A stretch of 64,000 nt of DNA from Candidatus Dojkabacteria bacterium (GTDB taxonomy: Bacteria > Patescibacteriota > Dojkabacteria > SC72): assembly GCA_040765985.1 (NCBI GenBank), contig JAXGRK010000004.1:5773-69772 (forward strand). Direction: 5' to 3'. Made by a program: the position numbers and the translations under genes. Positions 28,668-64,000 of this stretch are shown piece after piece (position 1 is the stretch's first letter; each line of letters opens with the position of its first letter). Under the pieces are notes generated by a model that worked only from the letters and a program-made list of their open reading frames with translations, ran no database searches and had not been told where the DNA came from.

Positions 28668-28689
28668 TTTTAATATGTTATACTAAAAA

Positions 28690-40603: not shown

Positions 40604-40604
40604 T

Positions 40605-42417: not shown

Positions 42418-42468
42418 CTAATAGTAAAAGCAGTAAAGTATTCTATTAATTTGTACATATTTTAAAAA

Positions 42469-43150: not shown

Positions 43151-43234
43151 TTAAAAAATTAGAACAAAGATATTTGATATTTTATTCAACATTATCTATA
43201 CTTTTTAACATTAATTTATTAAAGTTTTTTTCAA

Positions 43235-43791: not shown

Positions 43792-43801
43792 CTTAGTTAG
43801 A

Positions 43802-45520: not shown

Positions 45521-45541
45521 TATTTAATAGCAACTAAGAAT

Positions 45542-46245: not shown

Positions 46246-46909
46246 TTCACTTTTCTTACCTTGATATAAAGTATAAGATTGAGTAAAGATGTTAATAATG
46301 ATGCAACATAAGGTAAAACCAGCAGCATTTAATACTGTTTGCTTTAGAATATTCTCTTCTTCAATTAGATTGTATTTTCTAATAAAAGAGATAGCTCTTT
46401 TAGAAGCATCAAACTCTATTGGTACTGTAAATGGTGAATAGTGCAGAACTAGAGAAAGGATAAGGCCAATATATTGGGTATATAATAATAGATTAAGTGC
46501 AAAACCAATGACAATTAGAAGCCATATATCCTAAAGTTATATTAACAATAGGTACTAAACCATTTCTTAGGTTAAAAAGTATAGATTTAGAGTATTTTTG
46601 TGCTACATGTCCTAATTCATGAGCACTTACATATCAACAGCAGAAGAATTTTTAGCTGATGTAGATAGTGTTACAGTATCATTTCTTGGATCAAAATGAT
46701 CAGAAAGAAACCTACCTGAAATATTTAAATCAATTTGAAACTGTTCTCCCTCTATTATCTTTCATGGCAACCTGCTCTCCTGTTAATTTTATTACTAGGT
46801 ATAATCTTAGATATTCTTGAATATGATGATGAAAGAGAGATCATATCTGGAATATTGTAACTAAAAGTATTGCAGGTATTGTATATATTAAATATGAATC
46901 TAAATACAT
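46228..46909 (-). pseudogene. YugP-like neutral zinc metallopeptidase (Zn_peptidase_2 family), frameshifted
   Basis: MYLDSYLIYTIPAILLVTIFQ..; LNISGRFLSDHFDPRNDTVTLSTSAKNSSAVD..SAHELGHVAQKYSKSILFNLRNGLVP; C-terminal TMs. Confidence 0.6.
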
Positions 46910-46929
46910 AGAAGCTGAGATTAAACTTT

Positions 46930-47432
46930 TTAGATAATTTGATAGATAGAGAAACCCAATACTACTCTCCAATAGAGGGAACTTGATGACAAATTAGATA
47001 TAGCTAGGTAATAAATATTGATATGTCCAAATGCTTTTATTCATTTGCCAAATACACTAAATTACAAGAAAGCCACCTTTAAAAAGTATTCCTAATATAT
47101 GACCAGATTTTCTTTTTGAAATAAAGTAAGAGAGTATAGGTTGAGTAATGATAAATGGAAGAACATATATTAAAAAGTATGTAGCACCATTGACTTAGTA
47201 CGGTAAAACTAGCAGTAATAGAGGTAAGAATAGTATAGCTAATGTTTTCTTTAATCCAAAAGGTTAGTGTCGAATATACAATTAAGAGATTAACAACAGA
47301 GCCAACTAATAATTGCAGTTTTCCAATAATTGAGGGGTACTAGTATAGACAGGGAGTACACCATTGAGTAAAGGACTTTAATTTCTCAAAATTAAGATTT
47401 AAGATAGATATCTTTTGTTTTTCTAGTATCAT
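46930..47432 (-). pseudogene. Hypothetical polytopic membrane protein, frameshifted
   Basis: ATG at 47432 (MILEKQKISILNLNFEKLKSF..), followed by hydrophobic segments in several frames. No family recognised. Confidence 0.25.
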
Positions 47433-47524
47433 AATTAAGTATAATATATTTAAAGTGTGTACATACATTCTATCATATACTAAGAAACATTAATTAAAAG
47501 TATTAAAATTTAAGAGAAATATCA

Positions 47525-48372
47525 ATGGAGATTTACAAACAAGATAAAAAATATTTATGTATGTTAGCACCCTCCTTTGTTTCAATGTATATGAGTATCC
47601 AGAGATAATATATGCAGAATTAGAGCACTTGGCACATGACTAAAATTTATAGAGAGTAACCTTTAGTGCAAAAATGACCTCCAATCTTTCTTTACTACGA
47701 AATTCTTGAGAACAGAAAGATAGAACCTGGATATCCATCATGCCCTACCACTTATTAATATGATTAGAGGAAAGTATCCTCACTTAATTCCTAATCTTGT
47801 ACCTGTACACTCTCCAATGGGTAGTATGGCACTAATTGTTAAACATTTTTTTCCAGGGTATGAGGTTGTATTTATAGGGCCATGTTTAACAAAAGATGGA
47901 AGCTAAAGAGAGATAGGTACTGTAGATGAAGTATTAACCTTTACAGAGTTAGATGAACTTTTAAAAAGCATAATATTCCTGAAAAGATTACTGAATCTAA
48001 ATATCAGATTACATTTGATAAATTGTATAACGATTACACTAAGGTATATCCTCTGTCAGGTGGTCTATCAGAAACACTTCAGTACAACGATATATTAAAA
48101 AAAAGTGATATATTAGTTGCTGATGGAATGAAAAACATCATTAAAATCTTAGATGGATTTAAAGATGGATATTACAAAAAATAGATTTTTGGATATACTC
48201 TCCTGTGAAGGTGGATGTATAAATGGACCTTGTATTAATTATAAATTTCCAATTAAAGAAAGAATCAAAAGGGTTAGAAGTACAAGATTACGCATCTAGA
48301 TATGAAAGAGATTTAGGGAGAACAGGAAGAAAGATAGATGCTAAAGGAATAGATTTTAGTAGAAAATTCTAA
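47525..48372 (+). pseudogene. [FeFe]-hydrogenase large-subunit C-terminal-domain-like protein, heavily frameshifted
   Basis: YLCMLAPSFVS; SSCPT..LIPNLVPVHSPMGSMALIVK; VVFIGPCLTK; LSGGLSETL; ILSCEGGCINGP. These resemble the H-cluster-binding motifs but lack the CC doublet. Confidence 0.5.
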
Positions 48373-48390
48373 ATTAATATTACACTACTT

Positions 48391-48841
48391 ATGAATATGT
48401 ACATGGAAGAAGCTATAAACCAAGCTCGTAAGTATGAAAAAAGTCATGGAGGACCTTTTAGTGCTATTTTGTATGTGAAGGTAAGATCATTGCATCTGAT
48501 CATAACAGAGTCATTAAAAACCATGATGCTACATGTCATGCAGAGATTCTTATGATGCAAAGAGCAAGTAAAAATTTAAAGAGTTTGATTTGTCAAATTG
48601 TGAAATATATACCACTGGTAAACCTTGTAAGATGTGTGAAGGAGCTATTAATTAGGCAAAGATAAAGAGAGTATATTATGAAATAGCTATAAAGATGCCT
48701 TGAATATGGGCTTTGATGATGAGAAGGGTAATAACCAGGATATTGTTTATGAAAGAATAGAGAGTACTCAAACAGGTAAAATGGTGGGGAGTGAATTCTT
48801 TGAATACAGAAAGTATGTATTAATTCTTAATATATACTTTT
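48391..48841 (+). pseudogene. Nucleoside/guanine deaminase (CDA-fold zinc deaminase), frameshifted
   Basis: MEEAINQARKYEKSHGGPFSAI..; DATCHAEILMMQRA (HAE); TTGKPCKMCEGAINWAKIKRVYY (PCxxC); MGFDDEKG. Confidence 0.65.
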
Positions 48842-50916
48842 AAATCTACTGCCTGTGTTTCTGTTAATATTGCAGGATTCATATCTATGCTATGTATCAT
48901 TTATGTAACTAACATTCTTTAAGACATCAATCATTTCAATTAACTTCTCTTTTGCTAAAGCGTTTCCCTCTACTTATCTCATCAATTATAGTTACTGCCT
49001 TGGAAAACATATTAAGTTTTTTTAATAATGTTTTTACAGTCTCAGGTACTAAGAATATGCTGTATATCATCACATATACTTCGTATATATACCACCTTGG
49101 CCTATCCGCTATTAAATGACCGAATCAATCCTTTTCAGCAGCTTTTGATAACCAACTATCAATACCCTCTCTATTTGCTCAATAAAGAACTGCTAATTTG
49201 GTTCTACCATTTCTTGTATTAGAACTTCTGGAGATTTTTTACCTGTAGCTTTCTGTATATTTAATGTTAAAGCTTCAAATTTTTCTTGGAACTCTGAGAT
49301 AGTTCTAATATCAACAAATACACCTTTAAAATCAGTTTTATGTGTTAAATCCTTTGAGGTGGCTTTAATAACAATGGGAAAGTTCTTACTTGCAAATGTA
49401 ATTGCCTCATCTATATTTGCCGTAATTAACTGTTTAGGAAGCTGTATACCACACTCTTTAGCAATCTTTTCAGTAATATCATCTGGTAAAACAGTTACTT
49501 CATCTTTTAGATATTCATTTACAGCTTTTTTGTATTTACCCTTTAATTGTAAATCAGATACTTTTCTAATACCCCCTTCTCTATCTTGCATCTCATAGTC
49601 TGTTACCTTACTAATTAATCTAACACTATCCTCTATATTATTAGACACATACATACCGTAAGCTCTTAAAATCTTGTTCCCATCACTAATATCACTACCG
49701 CCTAAAAAGCATGAAAATATTGGTTTTGAAGTTTGTTTCTGTATCTCTACAATACTTTTAGCAACACCTGAAATGTCTGTTACTAATTGAGGAGTAAGTA
49801 TTACCACAAGAGAGTGAACGGATATATCATCTAAGAGGGTTTTAATTGTATATTCATATCTATCAAGTAAAGCGTCACCTAGAATATCCACTGGATTATT
49901 AATATTAGATTGTAAAGGTAAAAATTTTGCTAATTTGTCTTTTGTTTTTTCTCCTATCTCTGCTAATTCTAAACCAAATAGCTCAACAAAATCAGTTGCC
50001 ATAATGCCTGGACCACCAGCGTTTGTTACAATACCAACACCCCTTCCCTTTGGTAGCTTTTTACCAGAAACAACCTTAATCATATCGAATAGCTCTTCAG
50101 AACTCTCTACTTTAATTAAATTTGACTTCTTAATTGCTGCAAGTGTTGTATCGTATGAGGTAGCTAGAGAGCCAGTATGAGAAGAAATGGCCTCTTTTGC
50201 CTTTTGAGAGCTTCCAGGAGCTATAATAATCATTGGCTTTGTACTTCTGTTTGCTATTTCAATAAAGTCTTTACCATCTGTAAACTCTTCAAGATATATT
50301 GCAATAGACTCGGTATCTGTATCTTTCTGCAGATATTCAATTAACTCATTCTCATTAATATCTGCCTTGTTACCAATAGATATTACTTTAGAAAAACCGA
50401 TACTATCTCTAATAGCTAAATCTAATATAGCTGTACAGAAAGCACCAGACTGTGAAATAAAAGCAGTAGAGCCCTTCCCAGGATTCTTTCTTGCAAATGA
50501 AAGATTTAAATTAATACTATTATTAATTATTCCTAATGTATTAGGACCAATTAACCTAATATCTGCTTTCTTTAATTTATTAGCAATCTCTTGCTCTAAT
50601 GCTTTACCCTCTGGACCTATTTCTTTAAATCCTGATGATATTATTATTACACCACTAACTTTTTCAATACAATCATCTACAACACTTTCAACAAACTGAG
50701 AGGTATAACTATACATACTAAATCTATACTACCCTATGCTTAGAATATCTGGATAACAAGTTTACCCTCTATCTCTTTATATGAGATTAACAGGATATAC
50801 CTTTCCAGTGTATCCTCCTCTAGTATATTACTGTATATTACACTACCTATCTTAGCTTTTCTTCAAAACCCCTACTGCAACAATACTTTTAGGAAAAGAA
50901 TATTATATCTTTTCAT
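48820..50916 (-). pseudogene. Acetate--CoA ligase (ADP-forming), fused alpha/beta type; middle 507 codons intact, both ends frameshifted
   Basis: ORF 49193..50716 (IISSGFKEIGPEGKALE.., ATP-grasp part). Upstream fragments are PKSIVAVGVS..GYTGKVYPVN. The downstream fragment ..IDMNPAILTETQAVDLKVYIKN* is in shifted frames. Confidence 0.8.
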
Positions 50917-51769: not shown

Positions 51770-53470
51770 TTTCTTAAATACTCTAATATATCATCTACAA
51801 AAAATGGTCTTCCATCGAAATTGTTTATTGTATTAGATATGTAAAAATTAGTTTCTTGTTTAATCAATTTCCCTAATCCATTACTTTGATTGTTTTCAAT
51901 TAAGACAATTTTTGTATTCTTTTTAGTTAATTCCAAAAGTTTTTGGTATTTAAAAGGATATATATATTTGTAATGTAAGTACCCTATTCTTTTCTTACTC
52001 TGTTTCATTGCATCTAATACAGCATTTTTACTGCTACCTAAACCAACAAAAACAATGGATGGATCCGATGAACCATAGTATTTTGGCTCTGGAGTATTTT
52101 TTTTCAATGAAGTTAACTTTCTCATTCTTTTTTCTGACATATTCACAATATCTATTTCGTCTTCTGTACTAATACCATCTTCATTATGCTCATCACTATT
52201 GGTTAAATATGTTTTTTTACCATTTTTTGGTATCCATCTAGGGGAAACACCACTTCTAGTTATTAAATATCTCTGTGTACCGTTTTGTAAAAGACCTCTA
52301 TCAAGCCCTTTCGGTTTAGGTAATTTAGATATATTGAAGATAGATTCTGCAATATGTTTTTCAGTAAGTAAAATAACAGGTATCTGAAACTTCTCAGAGA
52401 TATTAAATGCATCTTGGATTAGTTCAAAGCTGTCTATAGCGTCACTAGCACATAGTACACATTTAGGAGACTCTCCATGACCTGCGTGTAGGGCAACATT
52501 TAAATCAGAAGCACCACTCCATGTAGGTACTCCTGTACCACTCCCGGCTCTTTGACCTAGAACAATGACTAGAGGAATCTCTGTCATTCCCGAGCATGAT
52601 ATGCTTTCTGTCATTAGATCAAATCCACCTCCAGAGGTTGCAGTAAAAGCTCTTGTTCCCATATACATACTTCCCATTACCATTTGTACTGCAGTTATTT
52701 CACTTTCTGCTTGCTTTACAACAATACCAGTCTTTTCATATGTATTACCTAATACTTCTAGTATAGAGGTGGCAGGAGTCATAGGATACGCATAGTAAGC
52801 CCTACACCCAGCAGAGATAGCTCCCAAAGCTATAGCTTCATTTCCAGTTAATACCTTAGATTTAGACCACTGTACTGCTTTAATACCAGATATTTTTGAA
52901 ATATTTTGCTCTTTTAAAGTTGATAGATTGTAACCTGCCTTAATGCATCTTTTTCTGCTTGTATATCAACGCCCTCTTTTTTAGAAAAGTATTCAACAAC
53001 TACTTTCTCAAGTAACTTAATATCTAATCCTAAAACTTTCCACAAAGCACCTAACATTACAACATTTCCCATAATGAGGGGGGCTTTCTCTTTTGTAGTT
53101 ATATCAGCGCTATCTATATATATAACCTCAATTTTTGTTTTTTAATATATTCTTTTGCCTTTTGATTAAAGGTATACTCTTTTACAGAGTGAAGAAGAAC
53201 ACCATTTTTCTTAATAGAGTATATATATTCGTCTAGTGCCTCTTTTGCTATACAAACAAGAAAATCACACTTTTTAGTTGGAGAAAGAACATTGTCAGGT
53301 GAGAAATCAATTTGATATGAAGAGTAACCTCCTTTGATAATGGAGGGATACTCTCTATATGCAAATGTATGATATCCAATATTTTTAAGTGCTTTACTAA
53401 CAAATTTCCCAAGAGTATTGATACCTTGTCCAGATTGTCCTCCAATTTTTATGGAATATCTATTCTTCAT
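51766..53470 (-). pseudogene. 2-oxoacid:ferredoxin oxidoreductase, fused gamma-alpha subunit; frameshifts between 52830 and 53110
   Basis: ORF 53114..53470 is the gamma-like N-terminus (IKIGGQSGQGINTLG). ORF 51766..52827 is the alpha core (GAISAGCRAYYAYPMTPATSI..). The linker region reads in other frames. Confidence 0.8.
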
Positions 53471-53566
53471 TTATTGAGCAGTTTGTATATCTATTTAGGT
53501 TACCACTAGTAAAATATATTGTCAAAATGATTACAAATTAGCTAAAAGTAATGTAGAATATCTGGG

Positions 53567-54519
53567 ATGATAGATAAATGCAGTATAACAATTGAATCAG
53601 GTAAGGGAGGTAATGGAATAATCGCTTTTGATAGGGATAGGAAAGCGGATGGTGGTAGTGGTGGTAAGGGTGGAGATGTATATATTGTTGGAGATGAAAA
53701 TATACATGATTTTTCTAAGATAGTCCAGATTAAAACATTTAAAGCCCAGAGTGGTTATATTGGTGAAAAGAACAAAAGAACAGGTAAAGATGGTACTGAT
53801 TTAGAGATACATGTTCCTTTAGTGACAAAGATTTTTAATGGTGATGATACAGAGATTTTTACTATGTCTAAACATGGGTATAGATTGAAAATTTTAGATG
53901 GTGGTTTAGGTGGCTTAGGAAATTTTGCACTAAGAGGTGAGGGATGGGATGGTAAGTTATCAAGAACTAAAGGTGGTGAATTACAAAGTAAAAGCTTAAA
54001 CTTAGAGCTTAATCTTAAGGGGGACGTTATCTTTTTGGGCTTTCCTAATGCAGGTAAATCTAGTATTGTTAATTCTTTAAGTAATGCTAAATACAAGGTA
54101 GCACCGTATGAGTTTACTACACTTCAACCCCAGTTAGCTGTAATGGATAGATATATCCTTATGGATCTACCTGGTTTGATAGAGGGGCATACAAGGGTAA
54201 GGGTCTTGGAATTGATTTTCTTAAGCATACTAAATATGCAAAACTGCTAGTTCATTGTATTAGTTTAGAGAATGAGGATTTAAAAAGTATATAACGATAT
54301 GAGGAAAAGAGTTTGTTAATATTTCAGAAGATTTACATTCATTAAAGAGCTTGTTGTATTCACAAAAGCAGATATATATTCTAATGAACAGTTAGTTGAT
54401 GTTGAAAAAAACACTTAAGAAAGATTTTTAAAGACTTTTTAATTATGTCAGTATTTCGCAAGGAAGATATTGAGAAATTGAAGAAAGAATTAAAAAAAGA
54501 GATTGAGTTCTATTTCTAA
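53567..54519 (+). pseudogene. obg: GTPase Obg, frameshifted in the G domain
   Basis: ITIESGKGGNGIIAFDRDRKADGGSGGKGGDVYIVGD (Obg fold); GFPNAGKSSIVNSLSNAKYKVAPYEFTTLQP; DLPGLIEG. Later parts are in shifted frames. Confidence 0.85.
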
Positions 54520-54524
54520 TCCCG

Positions 54525-55274
54525 TTATCTAAAGCCAATTTTAGCATTCCACTGTAGATCTGGTTTATCACCCATACTATCTACTAACCACTCAAGATAC
54601 TCCTGTCCGTTCTTTCTATCTCTTCAAATGTTTTACCCATATATTTACCAAAGGACATCTCTCTCATTACTTGTGGTTGTTTAGTAATTAGCATCATATT
54701 ATCAATATTTAGTTTTGTATTAGCTTCAAGATATTTGTACAAGTCTTTAAGAAAAATATACATCACTTAATGCATCATGTGCTTTAATATGATCTTTATC
54801 TTCCTTTTTGTATAGCCCTAGATAGTATCTAAGGTACTGTAGTTTGTAACTTTCTAAATCGTATCCATCATCTGTAGTTAGTTGCATTTCTAGCTATCTT
54901 TAATGTACATATTTTCTTTCAATATTAATACCTTTTTTTAACACTTCAGAATCAAATTCAATATTATGAGCAACCCATATATACTCTTTAGCTAAATACT
55001 CCAGATACTCTTTTAATGAATTTCCTTTATATTCGGGATCTATACCCTCTTTTTGGTAATTTTGAATCTTGGAAAGTATCTAAATCTACAACATCTTCAG
55101 GAGTAATATTATGTATTGCCATGGCTCAAAAGAAATCTCTTGTACAGGTTTAAAATACATATTCATGTATATGTTAGGATCATCTGTTATGAATGCCAAT
55201 TGAAGAAGGTCTTTACATTGTGTATCTGTTGTTTCTGTATCTATATACAGTAATTTATTTTATTCATAAGTCAT
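54525..55274 (-). pseudogene. DEDDh-type 3'-5' exonuclease (DnaQ-like) with C-terminal DUF3820-like tail, frameshifted
   Basis: LLYIDTETTD (Exo I), WVAHNIEFDSEVL (Exo II), KAHDALSDVYI (Exo III). ORF 54584..54766 plus QEYLEWLVDSMGDKPDLQWNAKIGFR*. Confidence 0.65.
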
Positions 55275-55370
55275 AGATTTTAACACGTATATTTTTACTA
55301 ACAAATATTTGTAATTTAATATATATATTGATATATTTTTGAAATAACTTTTAGAAAATTGATATGCAAG

Positions 55371-55871
55371 ATGAAAATATTACAAAAAATAGTACCAGTT
55401 GTTGTTACTGTGATAATCGTGTCCGTTCTGTCTATTGGTATCTTTGTATTCTTAAACAAAGAGGAGGTTCCTACCAACAGATGTAAAATGGAACAAATAT
55501 TGATTTAAATTTAGAAGATAGTAATACCAATATGAGTAATGTAGAAGATTTTGAAGAGTTAACTATCACAACTTTACAAGAAGGTAGTGGGAAGAAGCAA
55601 TTATAGGAAATACTGTTTCGGTTCATTATGCAGGCACTCTAAGTGATGGAACTTAGAGTTTGATAGCTCATATAACAGGGGGACACCATTTGAGTTTACA
55701 CTGGGTGATGGTATGGTTATAACGGGTTGGGAAGAGGGAGTAAAGATGAAGGTAGGTGAAATTAGAGAATTAAAGATTCCATCATCAATGGGATACGGTG
55801 ATACGGGTTCTGGCCCTATTCCTGGTAAAGCAGGTTTAATATTTAAGGTTGAGTTACTTGAGATTAAGTAA
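55371..55871 (+). pseudogene. FKBP-type peptidyl-prolyl cis-trans isomerase, membrane-anchored, frameshifted
   Basis: TM IVPVVVTVIIVSVLSIGIFVF. The C-terminus FDSSYNRGTPFEFTLGDGMVITGWEEGVKMKVGEIRELKIPSSMGYGDTGSGPIPGKAGLIFKVELLEIK* is contiguous in one frame. Confidence 0.8.
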
Positions 55872-57285
55872 CTAGAACTTACCCAATACCATTAGTATAC
55901 CGATTAGAAGTAGTAATACACCTGCAACAAGGTGCATATATCTGATATTTTTTCTTTCAATCTTTAACATCTTCTGCTTTTTAGTGCCAATATATACAAG
56001 TATTACAGTTGCAAGCATGGTAAGATAAAGATCACATTGTAAAGGATTAGAGAGGGAAGAGCTTTTATAAATCCATCATTTGCAAGTAGACCTCCTAAGA
56101 TTACATATGGAATAGTACATGGATAAATAGTGTTACAGAGACCTACTACAAAAGCTGCAATAGGTGATGTAACTTTTGGATTAGTTTATTACTTTTGGTC
56201 TTAGAAATAGGGGCATCTCTGTTCCAATTCTTCGGTTTATATGAGAAGAAATCTTTTAATCCAAGCACTCCTAATATTATTGCTGCAATACCAAGTATGA
56301 AATTCATTCCTAGTTTACCATACATAAACTCTCTTATTGAGGTAATCGAATTTACTACTTCAAAGCTTTAATAATTAGAAAACCGTAAAGTATATACATT
56401 ACTAGTACTGCAAGAATAAAGAGAGACCTGCAAGTAAAACTTTTTTCTACTACCAGGATTGTATGTAATTATTGATATTAAAACTAAAGCTAATACTGAC
56501 AATGCACAAGGATTAACGGAATCTGCGAGACCCAAGCTAATTACTCGCCCTAACGTTACTGTTTCTTCATCTTCGATATTTTCATCTTGACTATCTTCCA
56601 CAATATTAACAGCTATATCTTCCCCATTCCATAGAAGTAGCCATCCATTTAATTTGATGGCATGTTCGTATGTTAAATTACCTCCAGGATATTCAACTAA
56701 AGTTTCATTTACTTTTTCACCTTTTAAATCTTGAATTGCTTCAGATACATTATCTGCATATATGAAATTCTTAATTATACTGTTCTGTTCATCAGTGAGT
56801 TTAGTTAAAGACTTTCTAATTGCTACTCGATCTTTTGAGTATATATGGGGATATCTCTCTAAATCAGTTAATCTCAAATCATTAAAAGATTTTTACTGTT
56901 CCATCTGAAAGATATATTGTATTTGATTGTGCTTGGGAAATCATACTATCAATATTATTTATTATTGGAGTATCACCTGCTTCGTGACTATCTTTATTAA
57001 ACATCACTTGTGGTATTCCTAAGCTTAAACCGTATATATCTGCATATGTGTTAAATACTTGTGAATTTGAAATATTTTTATACATTTCATACTCTATTAC
57101 AATAAATCCTCCCTCTTGAACTTTGTATCTGTAGTACTGGTGCTACCTGTGCGCAATGAGGACACCCTATCCCTGTAAATGATATTGCAAATTTTGTATC
57201 TTGATTAGCATTAACGTTGGTTTGTGGGATAAAGAACATTATCAAAAAAATTACTGTTAGTATTTTTACTTAATATCTTTTTCAT
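55872..57285 (-). pseudogene. Thioredoxin-like (CPHC) domain fused to CcdA/DsbD-type thiol-disulfide transporter membrane domain, frameshifted
   Basis: Signal/TM then FAISFTGIGCPHCAQVAPVL; ORFs 56882..57085 and 56368..56877 (..GLADSVNPCALSVLALVL..); further TMs reach the TAG at 55872. Confidence 0.65.
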
Positions 57286-57313
57286 TTGTTCTCAAATGTA
57301 ATATTATATCCCA

Positions 57314-58478
57314 ATGACCAAATTAGAACTTTCTAAAAAACAGATTTCTATTGTTGATTCAGTCATAGATTGGTATATGATGTCTGAACAAAAGTATATC
57401 ACATTAGGTGGTTATGCTGGAACAGGAAAAACTACTATTCTAGGAGATATATCAAAGAGGTTACATAAAGAAAAAAATGCTATTAAAAATTGCTTTCTGT
57501 AGCTATACTGGAAAAGCAAGCAGGGTATTGGAAAGAAAACTTAAAGAAAATAACTCGCTTTTTCCATCCGATTACATTGGTACTATACATAGGTTAATTT
57601 ATAGAGCAATTGTTGATGAAAGAGACAACATTTTGGGATGGGAAAAAATCCCTAATACAGATTTTAAATACTCATTGATAGTAATCGATGAGGCATCTAT
57701 GGTTACAGAGGATATTTGGAATGATTTACTTAGTTTTAATATCCCTATTCTAGCAGTTGGAGACCATGGACAGCTTCCACCAATTAACAGTTCTTTTAAT
57801 TTAATGGCTAAACCAGATTTAAAGTTAGAAGATATATATAGACAGGAGGGTGATAATCCAATAATTAAGATTTCTGAGATTGCTAGAAAGGAAGGTAATA
57901 TACCTTTTGATATTTATGGTAAAAATATTAAAAAGATTCATAAAAACGATGAAGATACACAGGAGATTTTAATTGATATTTTTGAACGTTTTGATTTAAA
58001 TACAATGGTTTTGTGTGGGTACAATACAACTAGAATTAAATTAAATAAAGGGATAAGAGGGCTGCATTTTGATAAAAATACACCTCAAAGGGGAGATAGG
58101 GTAATATGTCTTAAGAATAATAGGAATGAGAGTATATATAACGGGATGACTGGAAATATTTTGAGTATATCTAAAGAGAAATTACATGGTTTTTCTTACT
58201 ATGATACTGAGATAGAACTAGATTATGAAGATTTTACATTTTGGGGAAAAATTTCTATAAATCAGTTTAATTCGTCAACTCTAGTTGATTTAAAGATGAG
58301 AGATGTAAACTATTTCGATTATGGATATGCTCTTACTGTACACAAAGCACAGGGTAGTCAAGCAAAAAGAGTTGTTGTTTTTGAAGAAAGGTTTTCCAAA
58401 ATGGATGATGAAACTTTTGCAAGATGGTTGTATACAGCAGTAACCCGTGCAGAAAAAGAACTTCTCATCGTAGCATAA
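57314..58478 (+). pseudogene. RecD/Pif1-like SF1 DNA helicase, one frameshift near 57480-57500
   Basis: TLGGYAGTGKTT (Walker A), LIVIDEASMV (Walker B), LAVGDHGQLPPI, GYALTVHKAQGSQAKRVVVF. Confidence 0.8.
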
Positions 58479-58483
58479 TATAA

Positions 58484-58503
58484 GGTCTGACCCGGGTCTG
58501 ACC
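58484..58503 (+). terminator. GC-rich hairpin-forming element (possible terminator) just after the helicase stop
   Basis: GGTCTGACCC|GGGTCTGACC. The two halves are both a direct repeat and a near-perfect inverted repeat (core palindrome GACCCGGGTC). Only a weak T-rich tail follows. Confidence 0.35.
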
Positions 58504-58691
58504 CTCTCTTCTTATCTATTTTGCTTTTAACTCGAGCGTTTTTTCTTTTTAGCTTGTAAAAGTCCGTACATTGTACAATCGTTTTTTCTCATCATGTGTT
58601 TGATAAACAGCAGGAGAACAAGATAAAGATCGGGTTGATGGTGACAGAGGTGGGTCTGTCACTAATATGATTCTGGGTATATAATTGAGGT

Positions 58692-59430
58692 ATGATAATA
58701 AATAAAGCAAAAGACGAGAAAATTTTGAGGGAAGCAGCTACTATATCTGTATCAATCCTTAGGCAGCTAGGTGAGGATATAAGAGAGCAAATCACTCCTT
58801 TAGAGATAGATAGAAGAGCTGCTGTTTTATGTCGTGAATATAATGTAAAACCTGCTTTTAAACGTGTAAAAGGATATGATTTTAATACGTGTATCTCTGT
58901 TAATGATGTTGCAGTCCATGGTATTCCTAAGGATGTACCTTTGAAACAAGGAGATTTAATATCAATAGATTTTGGAATTATCTATAAAGGATTATATACA
59001 GATCACTGTTGGACATGGAGTATTGGAAAGCCGAGTAAAGAAAATGAGAGATTAATTAAAGCAGGGAGAGAGGCAGTAGAGAATTGTATTCCTCTTGCTG
59101 TTTCAGGTAATTATACTGGTGATTTAGGATATGAAATGGAGAGAGTTGCTAAAAAAAATGGTTTTAATGTATTAAAAATGTTTATAGGGCATGGTATTGG
59201 AAAGACATTGCATGATTCTCCTGATATCCCTGGTTATGGGAAAAAAAGTTCAGGAACTCTTCTAGTTTACAGTGGTATGGTTATATGTATTGAATGTCAG
59301 GTTGTTGATGATACTGGCAGGAAAAATTTCCATAGATCCAGATGGATGGTCGGCAAAAACCAAACATGGAGGCAACAGTGTAATGTTTGAATATATGGTT
59401 ATTGTTGGGAAGGACAGCCACTATTTTTGA
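58692..59430 (+). pseudogene. map: Methionine aminopeptidase type I, frameshift in the last ~40 codons
   Basis: ORF 58692..59390 reads ..NTCISVNDVAVHGIP..GDLISIDFG..YTDHCWTW..FIGHGIG... The C-terminus DPDGWSAKTKHGGNSVMFEYMVIVGKD is in another frame. Confidence 0.85.
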
Positions 59431-59547
59431 ATACATTAGATTGGAGTACACAATCCTTTAATTTTCTCGTTTTGTTTCCAATGAGAGTTGTAATATATGT
59501 TTTTATGATAAAATATCAAAGTTAATGGTAATTTTAAAATCAAAATT

Positions 59548-60508
59548 ATGTCAAACATGAATAATATATATGATATTGCAATAGTTGGAAGTGGTCCTGC
59601 TGGGCTTTCTGCAAATGTTGCCCATGCACAAGTAGATATAAACTTAAAAATATTGTATTTGGAAAGTTGTTGGGAGGACTCATAACTGAGGCGCATAAAG
59701 TTTGTAATTATCCTGGTTTTATAGATATTTCTGGAATTGATTTGGGAATAAGATTTCTATGAACAGGCAAAACACTGTGGTGGTGAGTATAGGACTGAAT
59801 ATATTACGGATATCAAAAAAGAAAATAATTTGTTTTTTTTAACTAGTGATCCTGGTAATACATATCAATCTAAAAGTGTAATATTAGCATTAGGTACAAA
59901 CAGAAACAAATTAAATCTTAAAAACAAGGACTACTACTTAGGCAAAGGGTTATCTTACTGTGCTACATGTGATGCAATGTTTTATAAAGAAAAAACAGTT
60001 GCTGTAATTGGTGGAAGTAATGCTGCTACTATGGCTGCATCAATGCTTTCAGATATTGCAAAGAAAGTTTATATAATATATAGGGGAACAGAGTTAAGAG
60101 GTGATCAACTTTGGATTGATGAGGTGAAAAACAATGAAACATCGAAATTATATATACAACAATATTAATTGGATTAAGAGGGAGAGAACAAGTGTGAAAA
60201 AGTAAAACTTTCTAGAACATATAACGGGTTGGAATATTTAGATGTTGATGGGAGTATTTGTAGAAATTGGTTCTGAAGCCAATGTTGATTTGGCAAATAA
60301 GCTGGGCTTAGATTTAAATGAGAAAGGATATATTAAAGTGTCAAAAGACCAATCAACAAGTATTGAAGGTGTATGGGCTGCTGGAGACTGTACAGATGCA
60401 TCAAATATGTTTGATCAAGTTGTAACAGCTACTAGCGAAGGAGCAATTGCCGCTAATAGTTTGTATTCATATTTAAAAAGTGGTCAAAAAGCCCCTGATA
60501 CATACTAG
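59548..60508 (+). pseudogene. trxB: Thioredoxin-disulfide reductase, several frameshifts
   Basis: YDIAIVGSGPAGLSA (FAD); GLSYCATCDAMFYKEKTVAVIGGSNAA (CxxC redox centre + NADPH site); GVWAAGDCTD. Confidence 0.85.
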
Positions 60509-61014
60509 CTTGTCCTACTATTTACAAAATCAACCCATTCTTGAAGATAGTTAGAACTTGACCATATTTTTTCTTTGCCAACCCCATATTCAATATGTCC
60601 ACCATATGATTCTATTAAGTCTGCTTCAACTTTTAATCCACTATTTGGATTATTCCTGTCATTATCATTCCTATCTCCCCCTTTACAGAACACATCTGGT
60701 CTAACTACTTCTAAAACTTCAGCACAGTTAGTAGCATTGGGATTTTCATGTATTATCACATAATCTACGCCCTTAATTGCATCAACTATCTCTGCCCTGT
60801 CTTTTGCTGGAATAAAAGGTTTTCCTTTTTTGTTAACGCACCTACTATCTCCATCTACAATTACGATTAATGTGTCTCCAAATTTCTTAGATTCCATTAT
60901 GCAAGACACATGTCCAGGATGTATTGGATCAAAAAATCCTGATGTACAGGCAATTCTCTTGTTTATTAACTCTTTATCTTTTATTCTAGGGAATTGCTCG
61001 AGTGAAATAATCAT
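60505..61014 (-). CDS. Cytidylyl/adenylyltransferase-family protein (RfaE domain II / TagD-like nucleotidyltransferase)
   Basis: Intact 169 aa. SGFFDPIHPGHVSCI (HxGH), LIVIVDGD, VDYVII. The stop overlaps the trxB stop (CTAG). Confidence 0.7.
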   Translation of the reverse strand: MIISLEQFPRIKDKELINKRIACTSGFFDPIHPGHVSCIMESKKFGDTLIVIVDGDSRCVNKKGKPFIPAKDRAEIVDAIKGVDYVIIHENPNATNCAEVLEVVRPDVFCKGGDRNDNDRNNPNSGLKVEADLIESYGGHIEYGVGKEKIWSSSNYLQEWVDFVNSRTS

Positions 61015-61235
61015 AAATATACTGTTAAAACTTATTTAATATTTAATCAATATTCTTAGTATATTACAATATATAACTTATAGGTATGTAAGAGTAATAG
61101 CACAACCTGTAGTAGTAAATATTTAACAAAGATACAGTATATTGTAGCCAATAACTATAAATCAAGATACTACAGGACTTTGACGGACACAAGGGGTTGA
61201 GGTAATCTGGACTACTTAATACAACCTGTTGTTTA

Positions 61236-61679
61236 ATGAAATGTCCATACTGTGGAAGTGCTACATCAAAAGTAGTAGATAAAAGAGATAATACAGACGA
61301 CTTCTCTACCAGAAGGAGAAGACAGTGTTTAAGATGTGGTAGAAGGTTTACAACTTATGAAAGAATTGAAAAAGTTGAAGTGGTTGTAATTAAAAAAGAT
61401 GGCTCTTTTGAACAATTTAATTGTGATAAATTAAGAAAAGGTATTAAGAAAGCTTTAAACACTGATAAAATTACAGAACAAGAATTAGATGAGTTCTGTG
61501 ATACTGTAACCAGAAAGGCAATGACTAATACCAACCCTATTACTACTACTGAGATTGGTAATATGGTTTTAGAGTGGTTAAAAACTTTAGATCCTTTAGC
61601 ATATATGAGATTTGCTTCTGTATATAAAGATTTTGAAACTGTAAACGATTTAAAAAAAGAACTTGAAAATCTAATTTAA
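61236..61679 (+). CDS. nrdR: Transcriptional repressor NrdR (zinc ribbon + ATP-cone)
   Basis: Intact 147 aa. MKCPYCGSATSKVVDKRD...RRRRQCLRCGRRFTTYERIE and an ATP-cone. 11 nt upstream of nrdD. Confidence 0.9.
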   Translation: MKCPYCGSATSKVVDKRDNTDDFSTRRRRQCLRCGRRFTTYERIEKVEVVVIKKDGSFEQFNCDKLRKGIKKALNTDKITEQELDEFCDTVTRKAMTNTNPITTTEIGNMVLEWLKTLDPLAYMRFASVYKDFETVNDLKKELENLI

Positions 61680-61690
61680 TATTTACTGTA

Positions 61691-64000
61691 ATGCCCCGAG
61701 TAAAAAAAGATAAAAATATTTCTTTCAAAGTTAGAAAAAGAGATGGAAGATTGGTTGAATTTGATCAAGAAAGAATTACTACCTCTATTTTTAAAGCGGC
61801 CGAGAGTGTAGGTGGTAATGATAGAGAAAGAGCTAAAAAAGTTTCAGATGAAGTTGTGAAGAGATTAGTAAATAAATATCCTACTGATGAAGAGATTACT
61901 ACTGAGGAGATATTCTCTGAGGTAAAAGAGACTTTAAAAGAGATGGGCCATGGTAAGACCGCTATTGCTTTAGAATTGTTTGTTAATCTAAGGAATAAGG
62001 TTAAAAATATTAAATCTTTAATTGATGCTGAGGAGTTAGTACGAGGATATATTGGTGAAGAGGACTGGAGGGTTAAAGAGAATAGTAATATGGCGTATTC
62101 ATGGCAGGGCTTGAATAATCATATATCTTCTTCTGTTCAAGCAAATTACTGGTTGTATTCTACGTATCCTAAGAAAATATCTAACGCACATATAAATGCA
62201 GATCTTCACATTCACGATTTGGGTATGCTTGCAACATACTGTTGTGGTTGGGATTTAAAGGATTTGCTTTTAAAGGGTTTTACTGGAGTTCCTGGTAAAA
62301 TATCTTCTGCTCCTGCTAAACATTTTGGTGCTGCATTAGGTCAGTGTGTAAACTATCTATATACTCTGCAACATGAGGCAGCTGGTGCTCAGGCGTTTTC
62401 TAGTTTTGATACATTGCTTGCCCCATTTATTGCCTATGATAAGCTTACATATTCTGAAGTAAAACAAAAGATGCAGGAATTTCTTTTTAATATGAATGTT
62501 CCTACAAGAGTCGGATGTCAAACCCCATTCACAAACATTACAATGGATTTGGTACCTAACGGTATGTTAGCAAAAGAAAATGTCATTATTGGTGGTAAAC
62601 CGCAGAAAGAAAAATACTCTGATTTTCAAAAAGAGATGGATATGATTAATCAAGCTTTCTGTGAAGTTATGATGGAGGGTGATGCTCAAGGTCGTCTTTT
62701 TTCCTACCCTATTCCCACCTACAATCTTACGAAAGATTTTGATTGGGATAATCCTAAACATATTCCTTTGTGGGAAATGACCGCTAAATATGGTATCCCA
62801 TATTTTCTAACTTCATTAATTCTGATATGAGTCCTGATGATGCTAGATCCATGTGTCCTTTGGCTGGAGATGAGAAAGTTTTGATTAAATCATCACGAGG
62901 AGGGGCTTAGAGTTCTCTGATATTAGAAATGTTTATGAAGGTCATTCTAAGCAGATAGAGTATGAAATATTTAGTGATGGAAGATTTGTAAGGTAAGTTT
63001 AACAAGTTTGAGAATCAGGAAATGATCAAGTACTCTATCAAATAATCACAGTATTAGAATGTCTAGAAAACATCTTAACTTTTTGTTTTGGAAAACAGTA
63101 ATTCAAATATCAAAGAGTTGATTGGTTCACAACTTACTACAGATATGTATCTTCCTTTACTCCTTAAATGTTTATGAAGGTAAAGGGTAACAAGATTTAG
63201 GATATTTTGTAGGAGCTTATGCAGGTTATGGAAGTTTTGATGAAGAAACTGCTGTTGTATTTTCTCTTTCTTTAGATCAGAAAAAAGATGTTGTTAAAAA
63301 AAACTAATTCATATATCTGAAACATATTTTGGAGCTAATTTTTCAATTAAGGAATACGAAGACAGTAAACTACTTACTTTAAAAATACATTCAAAAGCCG
63401 CTGTAGGTCTATGTAAAGACTATGTAATTGGAAAAAGAGAAGAAAAAGCATATACAGCAGGTTGTATGAAACATCTAAAGAGTTTAGATTAGGAGTTTTT
63501 TGGATGGTCACTACGCTACAGATGGTGGAAATAGGAATAGAATATATACTTCATCTAAAATGGTTAAATCTCTTAATATGTTAGCCGCGACTCTTGGTAC
63601 TACCACATCCATTTATAAGATAGCAGGGATGGACGTTTAGGAAAAGAATACTAACTATGCAGTATTGATATATAAGCTTGGTAGAAAACAGTATGGAGAT
63701 TTTGGTTTAAAAAAGACAATATGTTGTAGGTAAAGATAAAGGATATTAAGAAAATACCAAATAGTTCAGCATACTGTTTTGAAATAAATAATGATAAACC
63801 AATATTTACAGTTGGTAGTACTGGTATTCTAACTCATAACTGTAGACTTAGATTGGATAATAGAGGGTTAAGAAAGAGAGGTGGTGGTCTTTTTGGCGCA
63901 AATCCTCTTACAGGTAGTATTGGTGTTGTCACTATTAATATGCCAAGAATTGGATATTTAGCAAAAGATAAACGGGATTTTTACAAAAGGTTAGATAAAT
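61691..64000 (+). pseudogene. nrdD: Anaerobic ribonucleoside-triphosphate reductase (class III, NrdD), interrupted by an intein; 1-nt shift at ~62808-62811; continues beyond window
   Basis: ATP-cone N-terminus (KVRKRDGRLVEFDQERI). ORF 61691..62830, then after the slip ..NFINSDMSPDDARSM. The C-extein from 63841 reads CRLRLDNRGLRKRGGGLFGANPLTGSIGVVTINMPRIGY. Confidence 0.85.
62854..63840 (+). mobile_element. Intein with LAGLIDADG homing-endonuclease domain inserted in nrdD (many internal frame disruptions as sequenced)
   Basis: Starts CPLAGDEKVLIKS (block A-like) and ends VGSTGILTHN followed by Cys+1. Two LAGLIDADG-like motifs: LGYFVGAYAGYGSFDEE and FLDGHYATDGGNRNRIYTSS. The length of 987 nt is a multiple of 3. 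Confidence 0.8.

What the first reader, a model, noticed from the sequence alone, without database searches (positions are those of the whole stretch)
62854..63840. LAGLIDADG intein inserted immediately before the CRLRLD Cys motif of class III ribonucleotide reductase
NrdD reads ..DDARSM, then 987 nt that begin Cys-Pro-Leu-Ala-Gly-Asp-Glu-Lys-Val-Leu and end ..Gly-Ile-Leu-Thr-His-Asn. The host protein then resumes with Cys-Arg-Leu-Arg-Leu-Asp..RGGGLFG..GSIGVVTINMPRIGY. His-Asn/Cys+1, a Cys1 block A and two LAGLIDADG-like motifs are the hallmarks of a canonical intein with a homing endonuclease. As I recall, the +1 Cys lies in the strongly conserved (C)CRL(R/S)LD segment that carries the thiyl-radical cysteine, which is a typical intein home. 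The insert length is exactly divisible by 3 and keeps the exteins in frame. Yet its interior contains many stops and frame slips, whereas the C-extein is clean. Whether the family's first Cys of a CC pair is missing or is the intein's Cys1 cannot be settled from this sequence.
Basis: partly seen in the sequence, partly recalled or inferred. Interest (0 to 1): 0.65.

Follow-up and report, generated by a model that had tools for sequence, protein, structure and literature searches.

The report
NrdD intein, garbled by assembly errors
This is a real, widespread self-splicing intein with a homing endonuclease, sitting between the two catalytic cysteines of an anaerobic ribonucleotide reductase; its stops and frame slips are almost certainly assembly errors, and it appears to start at a proline rather than the usual cysteine.

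Summary
NrdD (61691 onward, + strand) is interrupted at 62854-63840 by an intein that ends His-Asn and is followed by Cys-Arg-Leu-Arg-Leu-Asp.

The same intein is intact at the same site in at least 58 species-representative genomes. These include Patescibacteria/Dojkabacteria, Anaerolineae, DPANN and other archaea. One of them, L007, is 95% identical in DNA to the window.

Against L007 the window's copy has 14 small indels (15 in the patch 62803-63700) and two stop codons. Many are homopolymer-length errors. They occur at 1.7 per 100 nt, the density also seen in another patch of the window (54187-56441) that breaks unrelated genes. Between patches there are none. I read this as patchy assembly or sequencing error, not decay.

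The "canonical Cys1" reading does not hold. All 104 intein-free homologues read SMCCRLR. Occupied alleles read SMC|P...THN|CRL. Distant relatives at this site read C|CF...THN|C, with their own Cys1 aligned to this Pro. The inserted element is therefore 62857-63840 and starts at Pro.

With Cys at block F:4 and Thr at G:5, but Asn rather than Trp at B:12, it looks like a class 3-type intein variant. The splicing mechanism is inferred, not shown.

The parts
61236..61679 (+). nrdR (context; intact 147-aa ORF immediately upstream of nrdD)
   Evidence: ORF list. The same gene in the syntenic loci L003 and L062 carries Zn_ribbon_NrdR and ATP-cone.
61691..62856 (+). NrdD N-extein (ATP-cone plus the N-terminal part of the NRDD barrel). 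It has one 1-nt deletion at about 62803-62808. Its last codon, TGT 62854-62856, is the first Cys of the host CC pair (extein -1).
   Evidence: Pfam PF03477 and PF13597. It is 83-94% identical to Dojkabacteria NrdD. T5->T4 relative to L007. Empty allele L062 reads ATG TGT | TGC CGA.
62857..63840 (+). The intein as an inserted element, Pro1 to Asn. It is 984 nt here and 990 nt (330 aa) in intact relatives. It comprises a HINT splicing domain and a LAGLIDADG endonuclease.
   Evidence: blastn to empty allele L062 breaks at 62856|62857 and resumes after 63840. There are 58 genome loci with full-length intact copies. Foldseek top hits are the TliVMA and PhoVMA inteins, PI-PfuI, PI-SceI and I-DmoI.
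62857..62889 (+). Block A (PLAGDEKVLIK), with Pro at the position normally held by Cys1
   Evidence: TIGR01445 profile position 2 aligns to the Leu after Pro. A control class 1 intein aligns its Cys to position 1. Cys1-type relatives align their Cys1 to this Pro.
63059..63082 (+). Block B (MSRKHLNF): Ser B:7, His B:10, Asn B:12
   Evidence: Alignment columns. B:12 is Asn or Gln in 44 of 44 Pro1-type relatives.
63194..63238 (+). LAGLIDADG motif 1 (DLGYFVGAYAGYGSF). TAT (Tyr) at 63227-63229 stands where every relative has GAT (Asp).
   Evidence: (D523Y).
63483..63550 (+). LAGLIDADG motif 2 (FRLGVF.DGHYATDGGNRNRIYT), interrupted by a +2 indel at about 63501
63763..63786 (+). Block F (SSAYCFEI). 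Cys F:4 is TGT 63775-63777.
   Evidence: Some Cys1-type relatives carry the class 1 Asp (Y-D-F) in this column, which fixes it as F:4.
63823..63840 (+). Block G (GILTHN): Thr G:5, His G:6, Asn G:7
   Evidence: The TIGR01443 intein_Cterm match ends on the +1 Cys.
63841..64000 (+). Start of the NrdD C-extein (CRLRLDNRGLRKRGGGLFG...). The +1 Cys at 63841-63843 is the second Cys of the CC pair, the thiyl-radical position. The gene runs off the window end.
   Evidence: Alignment to T4 MGCR and T. maritima SCCR is taken from PMC4493059.
62803..63729 (.). Error-rich patch: 15 small indels (62803, 62901, 62992, 63031, 63079, 63156, 63186, 63194, 63296, 63459, 63501, 63557, 63617, 63647, 63700) and stops at 63188-90 (TAA) and 63727-29 (TAG)
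   Evidence: Pairwise alignment to L007.

Best explanation
WHAT IT IS. It is a copy of a widespread, NrdD-specific intein that carries a homing endonuclease. It is inserted between the two adjacent cysteines of the ...SM-C|C-RLRLD finger-loop motif of a class III ribonucleotide reductase. The host is a Patescibacteria (most likely Dojkabacteria) genome.

THE FRAME SLIPS AND STOPS. They are most likely consensus errors. The assembly has error-rich patches, about 1.5-1.7 small indels per 100 nt, enriched in homopolymers. These alternate with error-free stretches. The real gene probably reads through as one ORF, as it does in the 95%-identical genome L007.

WHERE THE INTEIN STARTS. The intein proper begins at Pro (62857), not at the preceding Cys. 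That Cys is the host's first catalytic-loop cysteine. Excision therefore restores SMCCRL exactly.

HOW IT SPLICES (inferred, not shown). Because residue 1 is not a nucleophile, the first acyl shift of class 1 inteins cannot occur. The most likely route is the class 3 one.
1. The block F Cys (F:4, 63775-77) attacks the Cys(-1)-Pro1 peptide bond.
2. The N-extein is passed to the +1 Cys.
3. The C-terminal Asn cyclises.
4. An S-to-N shift joins the exteins.

SPREAD. The LAGLIDADG domain presumably cuts empty ATGTGT|TGYCGN alleles. That would explain why hosts with near-identical NrdD differ in carrying the intein.

SHOWN VERSUS INFERRED. Shown: the intein's identity, site and boundaries; its intactness in relatives; and the pattern of the errors. 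Inferred: the splicing route, endonuclease activity, and the sequencing technology behind the errors.
For: INTEIN IDENTITY AND SITE
- Intact homologues at 55-81% identity occupy the same site in 58 genome loci. 49 of 49 parsed loci read RSM-C-P[LI]xG...AYC[FL]E...LTHN-CRLR.
- Matches to TIGR01445, TIGR01443 and PF14890.
- Foldseek hits to intein-endonucleases.

ERRORS RATHER THAN DECAY
- L007 is 94.9% identical over 11.2 kb and has nrdD plus intein as one 1027-codon ORF.
- The window differs from L007 by 68 indel events, 61 of them frameshifting. 61 of the 62 frameshifting indels counted lie in ORFs that are intact in L007.
- The indels are confined to patches: 54187-56441 has 35 in 2255 nt, and 62803-63700 has 15 in 898 nt. 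There are none between patches.
- In the 54-56 kb patch indels outnumber substitutions (35 to 33).
- 50% of the 1-2 nt indels lie in runs of 3 or more bases, against 24% of bases expected there.
- Several look like shifted boundaries between adjacent homopolymers, for example GGGAAAG->GGAAAAG and CCCT->CCTTT.
- Substitutions in the intein still favour third codon positions (9/10/29).
- All NrdD indels fall in 898 of the 2310 nt of the gene held in the window.

PRO1 BOUNDARY
- 104 of 104 intein-free homologues read SMCCRLR. 15 of 15 occupied ones read SMCP.... None reads SMCRL.
- Protein lengths fit: 1019 = 689 + 330.
- The DNA break lies between the two Cys codons.
- 53 distant relatives at the same site read C|CF...THN|CRL, with their Cys1 aligned to this Pro.
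- HMM register.
- Both cysteines of the pair are essential in T. maritima and N. bacilliformis NrdD (PMC4493059).

CLASS 3-LIKE ROUTE
- The class 3 prototype MP-Be DnaB intein also begins with Pro1 (PMC2807308).
- Pro1-type relatives have Cys at F:4 in 44 of 44 cases and Asn or Gln at B:12 in 44 of 44. Cys1-type relatives show Asp or Ser at F:4 in 7 of 53 and varied residues at B:12.
- Thr-His-Asn in block G.
Against: - No reads are available, so error and very recent real mutation cannot be separated directly.
- Two damaging changes are substitutions, not indels: Asp->Tyr in LAGLIDADG motif 1 and Trp->TAG at 63727-29. One of them alone would truncate NrdD if real.
- 18 of the 58 short indels are not in any repeat of bases.
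- The error patch overlaps the intein rather well. That may be chance, since about 40% of the window is ORF-poor. It may also reflect strain polymorphism disturbing the assembly or polishing.
- Class 3 membership fails on one defining residue: B:12 is Asn, not Trp. The +1 residue is Cys, seen so far only in the Bvi IcmO class 3 intein.
- The covariation rests on few independent events, about 2 state changes on a crude NJ tree.
- The AlphaFold model is only moderate (pLDDT 64), and no coordinates were available to check the geometry.
Confidence: 0.75

Rival explanations
1. The gene is a genuine pseudogene. In this strain nrdD and its intein have really accumulated frameshifts and stops, and the organism relies on another RNR or on salvage.
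For: Two in-frame stops and a catalytic Asp->Tyr change are substitutions. About 40% of the window is ORF-poor, as in genomes undergoing reduction. Other public contigs of relatives (L001-L003) also show disruptions inside this intein.
Against: 61 frameshifts lie in ORFs that are intact in a 95%-identical genome, and in one patch indels are as frequent as or more frequent than substitutions. That ratio is far above what I would expect from natural bacterial divergence (my own expectation, not a computed result). The indels cluster in patches that cross gene borders and begin or end inside genes. In nrdD there are 0 in the first 1112 nt and 15 in the next 898 nt. Amino-acid conservation and the third-position bias are preserved. 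The broken genes include likely essential ones such as FtsW and a TadA-like deaminase. Intact proteins near-identical to L001 and L003 exist (P0054-61, P0037).
Confidence: 0.1
2. It is a canonical class 1 intein. The Cys before Pro is Cys1 and does the N-S acyl shift. The mature NrdD is then ...SM-CRLRLD, one Cys shorter than in intein-free relatives.
For: A Cys sits directly upstream, and His-Asn/Cys+1 is canonical. Automated annotation would call it Cys1. T4 NrdD has Gly at the corresponding position (MGCR), so that residue is not universally Cys.
Against: No intein-free homologue has SMCRL (0 of 104). The inserted DNA lies between the two Cys codons. Homologous inteins at the same site keep the host Cys and add their own Cys1, which aligns with this Pro. 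The block A register puts Pro at position 1. Both Cys of the pair are required for activity in two NrdDs.
Confidence: 0.1
3. The Pro1 boundary is correct, but splicing follows the class 2 (KlbA-like) route. The +1 Cys attacks the Cys(-1)-Pro1 bond directly, and the block F Cys plays only a supporting role.
For: The +1 residue is Cys, as in class 2 inteins and unlike nearly all class 3 inteins. The class 3 Trp at B:12 is absent.
Against: The class 2 signature residues are absent. Those are Ala1, Ser G:6 and Asp F:4; here they are Pro1, His G:6 and Cys F:4. [quoted passage not shown] F:4 is Cys in 44 of 44 Pro1-type members, whereas Asp occurs only among Cys1-type relatives.
Confidence: 0.15
4. 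The broken interior is a decaying or out-of-frame homing endonuclease inside a still functional intein. This would be the late stage of the homing cycle, or a non-canonical architecture with the endonuclease in another frame.
For: Inteins with out-of-frame or antisense endonucleases have been reported in actinobacteriophages. The LAGLIDADG Asp is changed to Tyr in the window.
Against: The frame changes also hit the splicing blocks. They occur between blocks A and B, and just before block F. Any frameshift upstream of block F/G and the C-extein would prevent splicing and truncate NrdD. Close relatives have the endonuclease in frame and intact. No long alternative-frame ORF exists across the region.
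Confidence: 0.03

Closest known systems
Class 3 inteins (prototype mycobacteriophage Bethlehem DnaB intein; also Msm DnaB-1, Mle DnaB, Dra Snf2, Bvi IcmO)
   Same: Residue 1 is not a nucleophile. The MP-Be DnaB prototype also starts with Pro and is a 341-aa intein with an endonuclease. Both have Cys at block F:4, Thr-His-Asn in block G and a conserved His at B:10. Bvi IcmO shares Cys at +1.
   Different: B:12 is Asn (Gln in a sister clade) rather than the defining Trp. The host is NrdD rather than a helicase, terminase or Cas4-type protein. The hosts are Patescibacteria, DPANN and other anaerobes. The nearest relatives are Cys1 inteins at the same NrdD site, which hints at an origin separate from the supposedly monophyletic phage/helicase class 3 lineage. 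No biochemistry exists for it.
Class 1 inteins with LAGLIDADG endonucleases (PI-SceI, PI-PfuI, TliVMA/PhoVMA inteins)
   Same: Overall architecture: a HINT domain split by a two-motif LAGLIDADG endonuclease. They also share His-Asn plus Cys+1, insertion at a catalytic site of a nucleotide-metabolism enzyme, and patchy presence or absence among close relatives. They are the best structural matches.
   Different: There is no Cys, Ser or Thr at position 1, and F:4 is Cys instead of Asp.
Other RNR inteins and introns (RIR1 inteins of class I/II RNRs; the putative nrdD intein of Clostridium phage c-st; the T4 nrdD group I intron)
   Same: RNR genes are favoured homes of homing elements. nrdD was the most often split RNR gene in a survey of phage genomes (PMC3653736).
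   Different: Those described are class 1 inteins or introns at other sites. I found no paper describing an intein between the two Cys of the NrdD finger loop.

Membership tests
Intein (HINT self-splicing element) | In-frame insertion at a conserved host site that is absent from close homologues | tested here: met
   104 intein-free NrdD homologues of about 689 aa, up to 94% identical, against occupied alleles of 1018-1024 aa. The DNA break is exact.
Intein (HINT self-splicing element) | Splicing blocks A, B, F and G, with C-terminal His-Asn and a nucleophile at +1 | tested here: met
   TIGR01445 scores 22-25 bits (cutoff 24.5). TIGR01443 scores 17.8 bits (cutoff 15.6). PF14890 is weak at 20 bits for the window's repaired copy but is precomputed for relatives. 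THN|C is present in 49 of 49 loci.
Intein (HINT self-splicing element) | HINT fold | tested here: met
   AlphaFold2 model of homologue P0002: pLDDT 70-93 in the N-terminal splicing part, 64 overall. Foldseek hits to inteins at E = 4e-13 to 1e-3. The window's own copy was not modelled.
Intein (HINT self-splicing element) | Protein splicing activity | not testable with these tools
   Needs expression and mass analysis.
Class 1 intein | Cys, Ser or Thr as the first intein residue | tested here: not met
   Position 1 is Pro by three tests: the empty-allele comparison, alignment to Cys1-type relatives at the same site, and the TIGR01445 register with a control.
Class 3 intein | Non-nucleophilic first residue | tested here: met
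   Pro1, as in the MP-Be DnaB prototype.
Class 3 intein | Cys at block F position 4 | tested here: met
   AYCFE. The column holds the class 1 Asp in some Cys1-type relatives, which fixes the register. It is Cys in 44 of 44 Pro1-type members.
Class 3 intein | Thr at block G position 5 | tested here: met
   LTHN in 49 of 49 loci.
Class 3 intein | Trp at block B position 12 | tested here: not met
   The block reads H-L-N-F. B:12 is Asn in this clade and Gln in a sister Pro1 clade, and is never Trp.
Class 3 intein | Ser or Thr at +1 (usual, with one known exception) | tested here: not met
   The +1 residue is Cys, as in Bvi IcmO only.
Class 3 intein | Block F branched intermediate and an obligate F:4 Cys | not testable with these tools
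   Needs mutagenesis and thiol-lability assays.
Class 2 (KlbA-type) intein | Ala1, Ser at G:6 and Asp at F:4 | tested here: not met
   Here they are Pro1, His G:6 and Cys F:4.
LAGLIDADG homing endonuclease (two-motif, monomeric) | Two LAGLIDADG motifs, each ending in a catalytic acidic residue | tested here: inconclusive
   Relatives have LGYFVGAFAGDGS and GHYATDGG. The window has Tyr for the first Asp (63227-29), inside an error-rich patch.
LAGLIDADG homing endonuclease (two-motif, monomeric) | Endonuclease fold | tested here: inconclusive
   Foldseek matches PI-PfuI, PI-SceI and I-DmoI, but the endonuclease part of the model has pLDDT of about 35-65.
LAGLIDADG homing endonuclease (two-motif, monomeric) | Site-specific cleavage of the empty allele, and homing | not testable with these tools
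   Only indirect evidence: presence or absence among NrdDs that are 92-94% identical, and spread across bacterial and archaeal phyla.
Class III ribonucleotide reductase NrdD | NRDD barrel domain, ATP-cone, and the finger-loop Cys motif | tested here: met
   PF13597 at E=8e-97 and PF03477. The motif SMC|CRLRLD aligns with T4 MGCR and T. maritima SCCR. The glycyl-radical part lies beyond the window end.

The most novel reading that the evidence does not exclude
The window holds a member of a large and old clade of NrdD inteins. Members fall to 17-30% pairwise identity and occur in both bacteria and archaea. They have no N-terminal nucleophile (Pro1). They would splice through the block F cysteine, with an amide residue (Asn or Gln) at B:12 in place of the class 3 Trp. 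The clade arose among Cys1 inteins at the same site. That would make it a second, independent origin of class 3-type splicing, outside the phage/helicase lineage that has been regarded as monophyletic. The intein sits between two redox-active catalytic cysteines and uses two further cysteines (F:4 and +1). Its splicing might therefore depend on thiol or redox state, tying maturation of an oxygen-sensitive enzyme to anoxia. This last point is pure speculation.
Probability: 0.45. Interest if true: 0.6.

Novelty: new variant of a known kind. Interest (0 to 1): 0.4.

Why it matters
For this window, the practical lesson is that the "decayed intein" is an assembly artefact. About 40% of the contig carries the same damage, so frameshifted genes here should not be read as biology.

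For intein biology, the family is worth a look. It splits the two essential cysteines of the NrdD radical loop. It starts with Pro. It meets three of the class 3 criteria, fails the Trp criterion, and has Cys1 sister inteins at the same site. If splicing does go through the block F cysteine, two things follow:
- Class 3 chemistry is not confined to one phage-derived lineage.
- Its Trp is replaceable.

That is directly testable with a reporter construct. I found no paper describing it in 6 literature searches, but the proteins are already in public databases with Intein_splicing domain hits. The novelty lies in the interpretation, not in the sequence.

Tried and rejected
- ALTERNATIVE GENETIC CODE. 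Treating TGA or TAG as sense raises coverage by ORFs of 100 codons or more only from 0.60 to about 0.69-0.70. The disruptions are frame changes, not only stops. Rejected.
- NATURALLY SPLIT INTEIN. The first frame break comes 17 codons after the junction. No start codon precedes the last in-frame 37 codons before the C-extein. The N-extein itself is frameshifted. Rejected.
- OUT-OF-FRAME OR ANTISENSE ENDONUCLEASE. There is no long alternative ORF, and relatives have the endonuclease in frame. Rejected.
- RNA ELEMENTS. An Rfam scan of the window found only 4 tRNAs, so there is no hint of an intron.
- SEQUENCE SEARCH OF THE PDB with the intein profile. Only a marginal hit to the Mja TFIIB mini-intein (E=0.1). 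Not useful for fixing the N-terminal register.
- PHMMER ALIGNMENTS OF NrdD TO SOLVED NrdDs. They did not cover the CC motif. I relied on the motif alignment published in PMC4493059 instead.
- tblastn FOR MAPPING FRAMESHIFTS. It ran through stops and merged frames. I replaced it with my own frameshift-aware dynamic programming.
- AlphaFold2. The model was too weak in the endonuclease domain, and no coordinates were available, so the distance from the F:4 Cys to the scissile bond could not be checked.
- Tori & Perler 2011 (PMC3133030) is not held in the library.
Full report
1. WHAT IS IN THE SEQUENCE

On the + strand an intact nrdR (61236-61679) is followed by nrdD from 61691. A conceptual extein-only translation hits Pfam NRDD (E=8e-97) and ATP-cone.

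- ...DDARSM ends at 62853.
- TGT CCT TTG GCT GGA GAT GAG AAA GTT follows from 62854.
- ...GGT ATT CTA ACT CAT AAC ends at 63840.
- TGT AGA CTT AGA TTG GAT follows, and the gene runs off the window at 64000.

A frameshift-aware protein-to-DNA alignment against intact homologues shows 11 frame changes and two in-frame stops inside the insert. It also shows one frame change in the N-extein at about 62803-62808.

2. THE INSERT IS A REAL, WIDESPREAD INTEIN

Examples come from an Acidobacteriota MAG and a Methanophagales MAG, at 58-60% identity over its full length.

A scan of one genome per GTDB species found 58 loci with full-length matches. They include Dojkabacteria and other Patescibacteria, Anaerolineae, Ratteibacteria, Woese-, Aenigm-, Nano-, Micr- and Iain-archaeota, Thermoplasmatales, Bathyarchaeia and Methanobacteriota.

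In 49 of 49 loci that I could parse, the reading is RSM-C-P[LI]xG ... AYC[FL]E ... G[ILV]LTHN-CRLR over 326-337 uninterrupted codons.

Both LAGLIDADG motifs are present in relatives: LGYFVGAFAGDGS and GHYATDGGNRNRIYT.

An AlphaFold2 model of homologue P0002 (mean pLDDT 64; the splicing domain is good, the endonuclease poor) finds these as best PDB matches: the TliVMA and PhoVMA inteins, PI-PfuI, PI-SceI, PI-TkoII, I-DmoI and mini-inteins.

Intein-free NrdDs up to 94% identical (689 aa) coexist in the databases with occupied ones (1018-1024 aa). This is the patchy distribution expected of a homing element.

3. THE STOPS AND FRAME SLIPS ARE MOST LIKELY ASSEMBLY ERRORS

Locus L007 is a short-read SPAdes contig of an uncultured Patescibacteria MAG. 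It is 94.9% identical to window 52843-64000. It has nrdD plus intein as a single 1027-codon ORF, and intact TrxB, exonuclease, FKBP and DsbD-like genes. L062 also has all these neighbouring genes intact.

The window differs from L007 by 466 substitutions and 68 indel events within the window.
- 61 events are frameshifting, and 61 of the 62 frameshifting indels counted lie in ORFs that are intact in L007.
- The indels are confined to patches. 54187-56441 has 35 in 2255 nt (1.55 per 100 nt) with only 33 substitutions. 62803-63700 has 15 in 898 nt (1.67 per 100 nt). The clean stretches between patches have none.
- Half of the 1-2 nt events lie in runs of 3 or more identical bases, against 24% of bases expected there.
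- Several look like shifted boundaries between neighbouring homopolymers: GGGAAAG->GGAAAAG, CCCT->CCTTT, A6->A8, and T5->T4 twice.

Within nrdD there are no indels in the first 1112 nt and 15 in the next 898 nt. The affected stretch starts 51 nt before the 62854 Cys codon and ends about 110 nt before the intein's end, so it does not follow the intein's borders.

Intein substitutions relative to L007 still favour third codon positions (9/10/29). Apart from two changes they are conservative.

A frameshift inside an intein would truncate the host protein. Selection therefore cannot explain why the intein alone would decay.

The rest of the window shows the same picture. Only 60% of bases lie in ORFs of 100 codons or more. 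Long stretches, for example 40604-49192, hold recognisable gene fragments in alternating frames.

I conclude that the damage is technical. The error profile resembles an unpolished long-read consensus, but the technology is my inference.

What remains uncertain is whether two substitutions are real: GAT->TAT at the first LAGLIDADG Asp, and TGG->TAG at 63727-29. "987 nt, divisible by 3" is a coincidence. Intact copies are 993 nt from Cys to Asn, and the window's indels sum to -6.

4. WHERE THE INTEIN STARTS

- All 104 intein-free homologues read ...DDARSMCCRLR.... All 15 occupied ones read ...DDARSMCP...THNCRLR.... None reads SMCRL.
- Protein lengths fit 689 + 330 = 1019.
- At the DNA level the empty allele L062 is ...ATG TGT | TGC CGA CTT.... 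The occupied allele is ...ATG TGT | CCT TTG ... CAT AAC | TGT AGA CTT.... blastn breaks at 62856|62857.
- An exhaustive phmmer search found 278 related inteins. The 99 I could align over nearly their full length all sit in NrdD at this site. 44 start C|P.... 53 start C|CF..., which means they keep the host Cys and have their own Cys1 aligned with this Pro.
- The NCBIfam intein_Nterm model aligns its position 2 to the Leu after Pro. In a control Cys1 intein (the extra NrdD intein of L003) it aligns position 1 to the Cys.

The element is therefore Pro...Asn (62857-63840). The preceding Cys is extein residue -1, and splicing restores the CC pair.

[quoted passage not shown] Both cysteines are needed for activity in T. 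maritima and N. bacilliformis NrdD (PMC4493059).

5. HOW IT PROBABLY SPLICES (inference)

With Pro at position 1 the class 1 N-S acyl shift is impossible.

Class 3 inteins are defined by a non-nucleophilic residue 1, Trp at B:12, Cys at F:4, Thr at G:5 and usually Ser or Thr at +1. The prototype MP-Be DnaB intein starts with Pro1. Bvi IcmO is the one known case with Cys+1 (PMC2807308, PMC5222942, PMC4031507).

Here the residues are Pro1, Cys F:4 (AYCFE), Thr G:5 (THN), His B:10, Asn at B:12 and Cys at +1.

Among relatives:
- Pro1-type members have Cys at F:4 in 44 of 44 cases and Asn or Gln at B:12 in 44 of 44.
- Cys1-type members show Asp or Ser at F:4 in 7 of 53, and N/H/F/C/V/I/S at B:12.

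The Pro1 state is old. Pairwise identity within it falls to 17-30%. It changes only about twice on a crude NJ tree. So this is conservation across deep divergence rather than many independent covariation events.

The most likely route is attack of the block F Cys on the Cys(-1)-Pro1 bond, transfer to the +1 Cys, Asn cyclisation and an S-N shift. A class 2-like direct attack by Cys+1 is the main alternative. The class 2 signature (Ala1, Ser G:6, Asp F:4) is absent.

6. COMPARISON WITH WHAT IS KNOWN, AND NOVELTY

- As an intein with a LAGLIDADG endonuclease in an RNR gene, this is ordinary. The proteins are already in public databases with Intein_splicing hits.
- It is not a class 1 intein, because the defining residue was tested and not met.
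- It works most like a class 3 intein but fails the Trp criterion. It lives in a different host gene and different organisms, and its closest relatives are Cys1 inteins at the same site.
- Reviews describe class 3 as monophyletic and of phage/helicase origin.
- Six literature searches found no description of an NrdD intein of this kind. The library is incomplete, however.

I therefore rate it a new variant of a known kind, with the mechanism unproven.

7. VERDICT

- Observation: confirmed.
The intein and its site are right. "Canonical Cys1" and the significance given to the internal stops are not.
- The copy in this window is most likely a functional gene misrepresented by assembly errors.
- Interest is moderate. 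It comes from the Pro1, class 3-like reading of the family, not from this damaged copy.

Noticed in passing
window 4144-5722, 14499-16290, 17937-19641, 27814-29183, 40604-49192, 54251-56367: These ORF-poor stretches hold recognisable gene fragments in alternating frames: ABC transporter, ABC-F ATPase, SPFH/stomatin, LemA, TadA-like deaminase, FtsW, exonuclease, FKBP and a DsbD-like protein. Only about 60% of the window lies in ORFs of 100 codons or more. Where the 95%-identical L007 covers the window (52843-64000), the same genes are intact in it.
   Followed up: partly
window 59830-60168 and 60242-60508: Thioredoxin reductase (TrxB) is split into two ORFs by frame changes. It is a single ORF of 316-327 aa in L007 and L062.
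   Followed up: partly
window 60343-60843: This segment overlaps the CTP_transf_like gene (60505-61014, - strand). It differs from L007 by 105 substitutions per 500 nt (about 21%), while neighbouring segments differ by 3-5% and some by 0%. The mosaic divergence suggests recombination between strains, or a chimeric consensus.
   Followed up: no
L003:2180-3150 (ENA ERZ2624663 NODE_10866): The NrdD of this relative carries a second, unrelated intein with a normal Cys1, at RVGCQ|CVSQDTEILT...VFITGN|TPFSNITMD. That site is empty in the window (RVGCQTPFTNITMD).
   Followed up: partly
L001:2041, 2307, 2581; L002:1415, 1468; L003:about 4216-4226: Public low-coverage contigs of relatives also show frameshifts, or a 44-nt deletion, inside this intein. 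Intact and near-identical proteins exist elsewhere (P0054-P0061, P0037). I did not examine whether intein polymorphism disturbs assembly at this locus.
   Followed up: partly
L062:12091-12225 and L007:about 11915-12050 (downstream of the window end): In these Dojkabacteria-type loci the glycyl-radical motif (CEVYSRVVGYIRPV) lies on a separate 44-aa ORF about 20 nt after the stop of the 689-aa nrdD. Other lineages (P0008, P0009) have it fused to the C-terminus. NrdD therefore appears to be naturally split here into a large chain and a small glycyl-radical peptide.
   Followed up: partly
window 63865-63867: The C-extein reads NRGLRK (GGG). The relatives inspected read NRELRK, NRVLRK or NRQLRK, and L007 has GAG. 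This is a window-specific change in a conserved segment outside the indel patch.
   Followed up: no
window 61120-61170: ATACAGTATATTGTAG lies upstream of nrdR and nrdD. I did not look for a second box.
   Followed up: no
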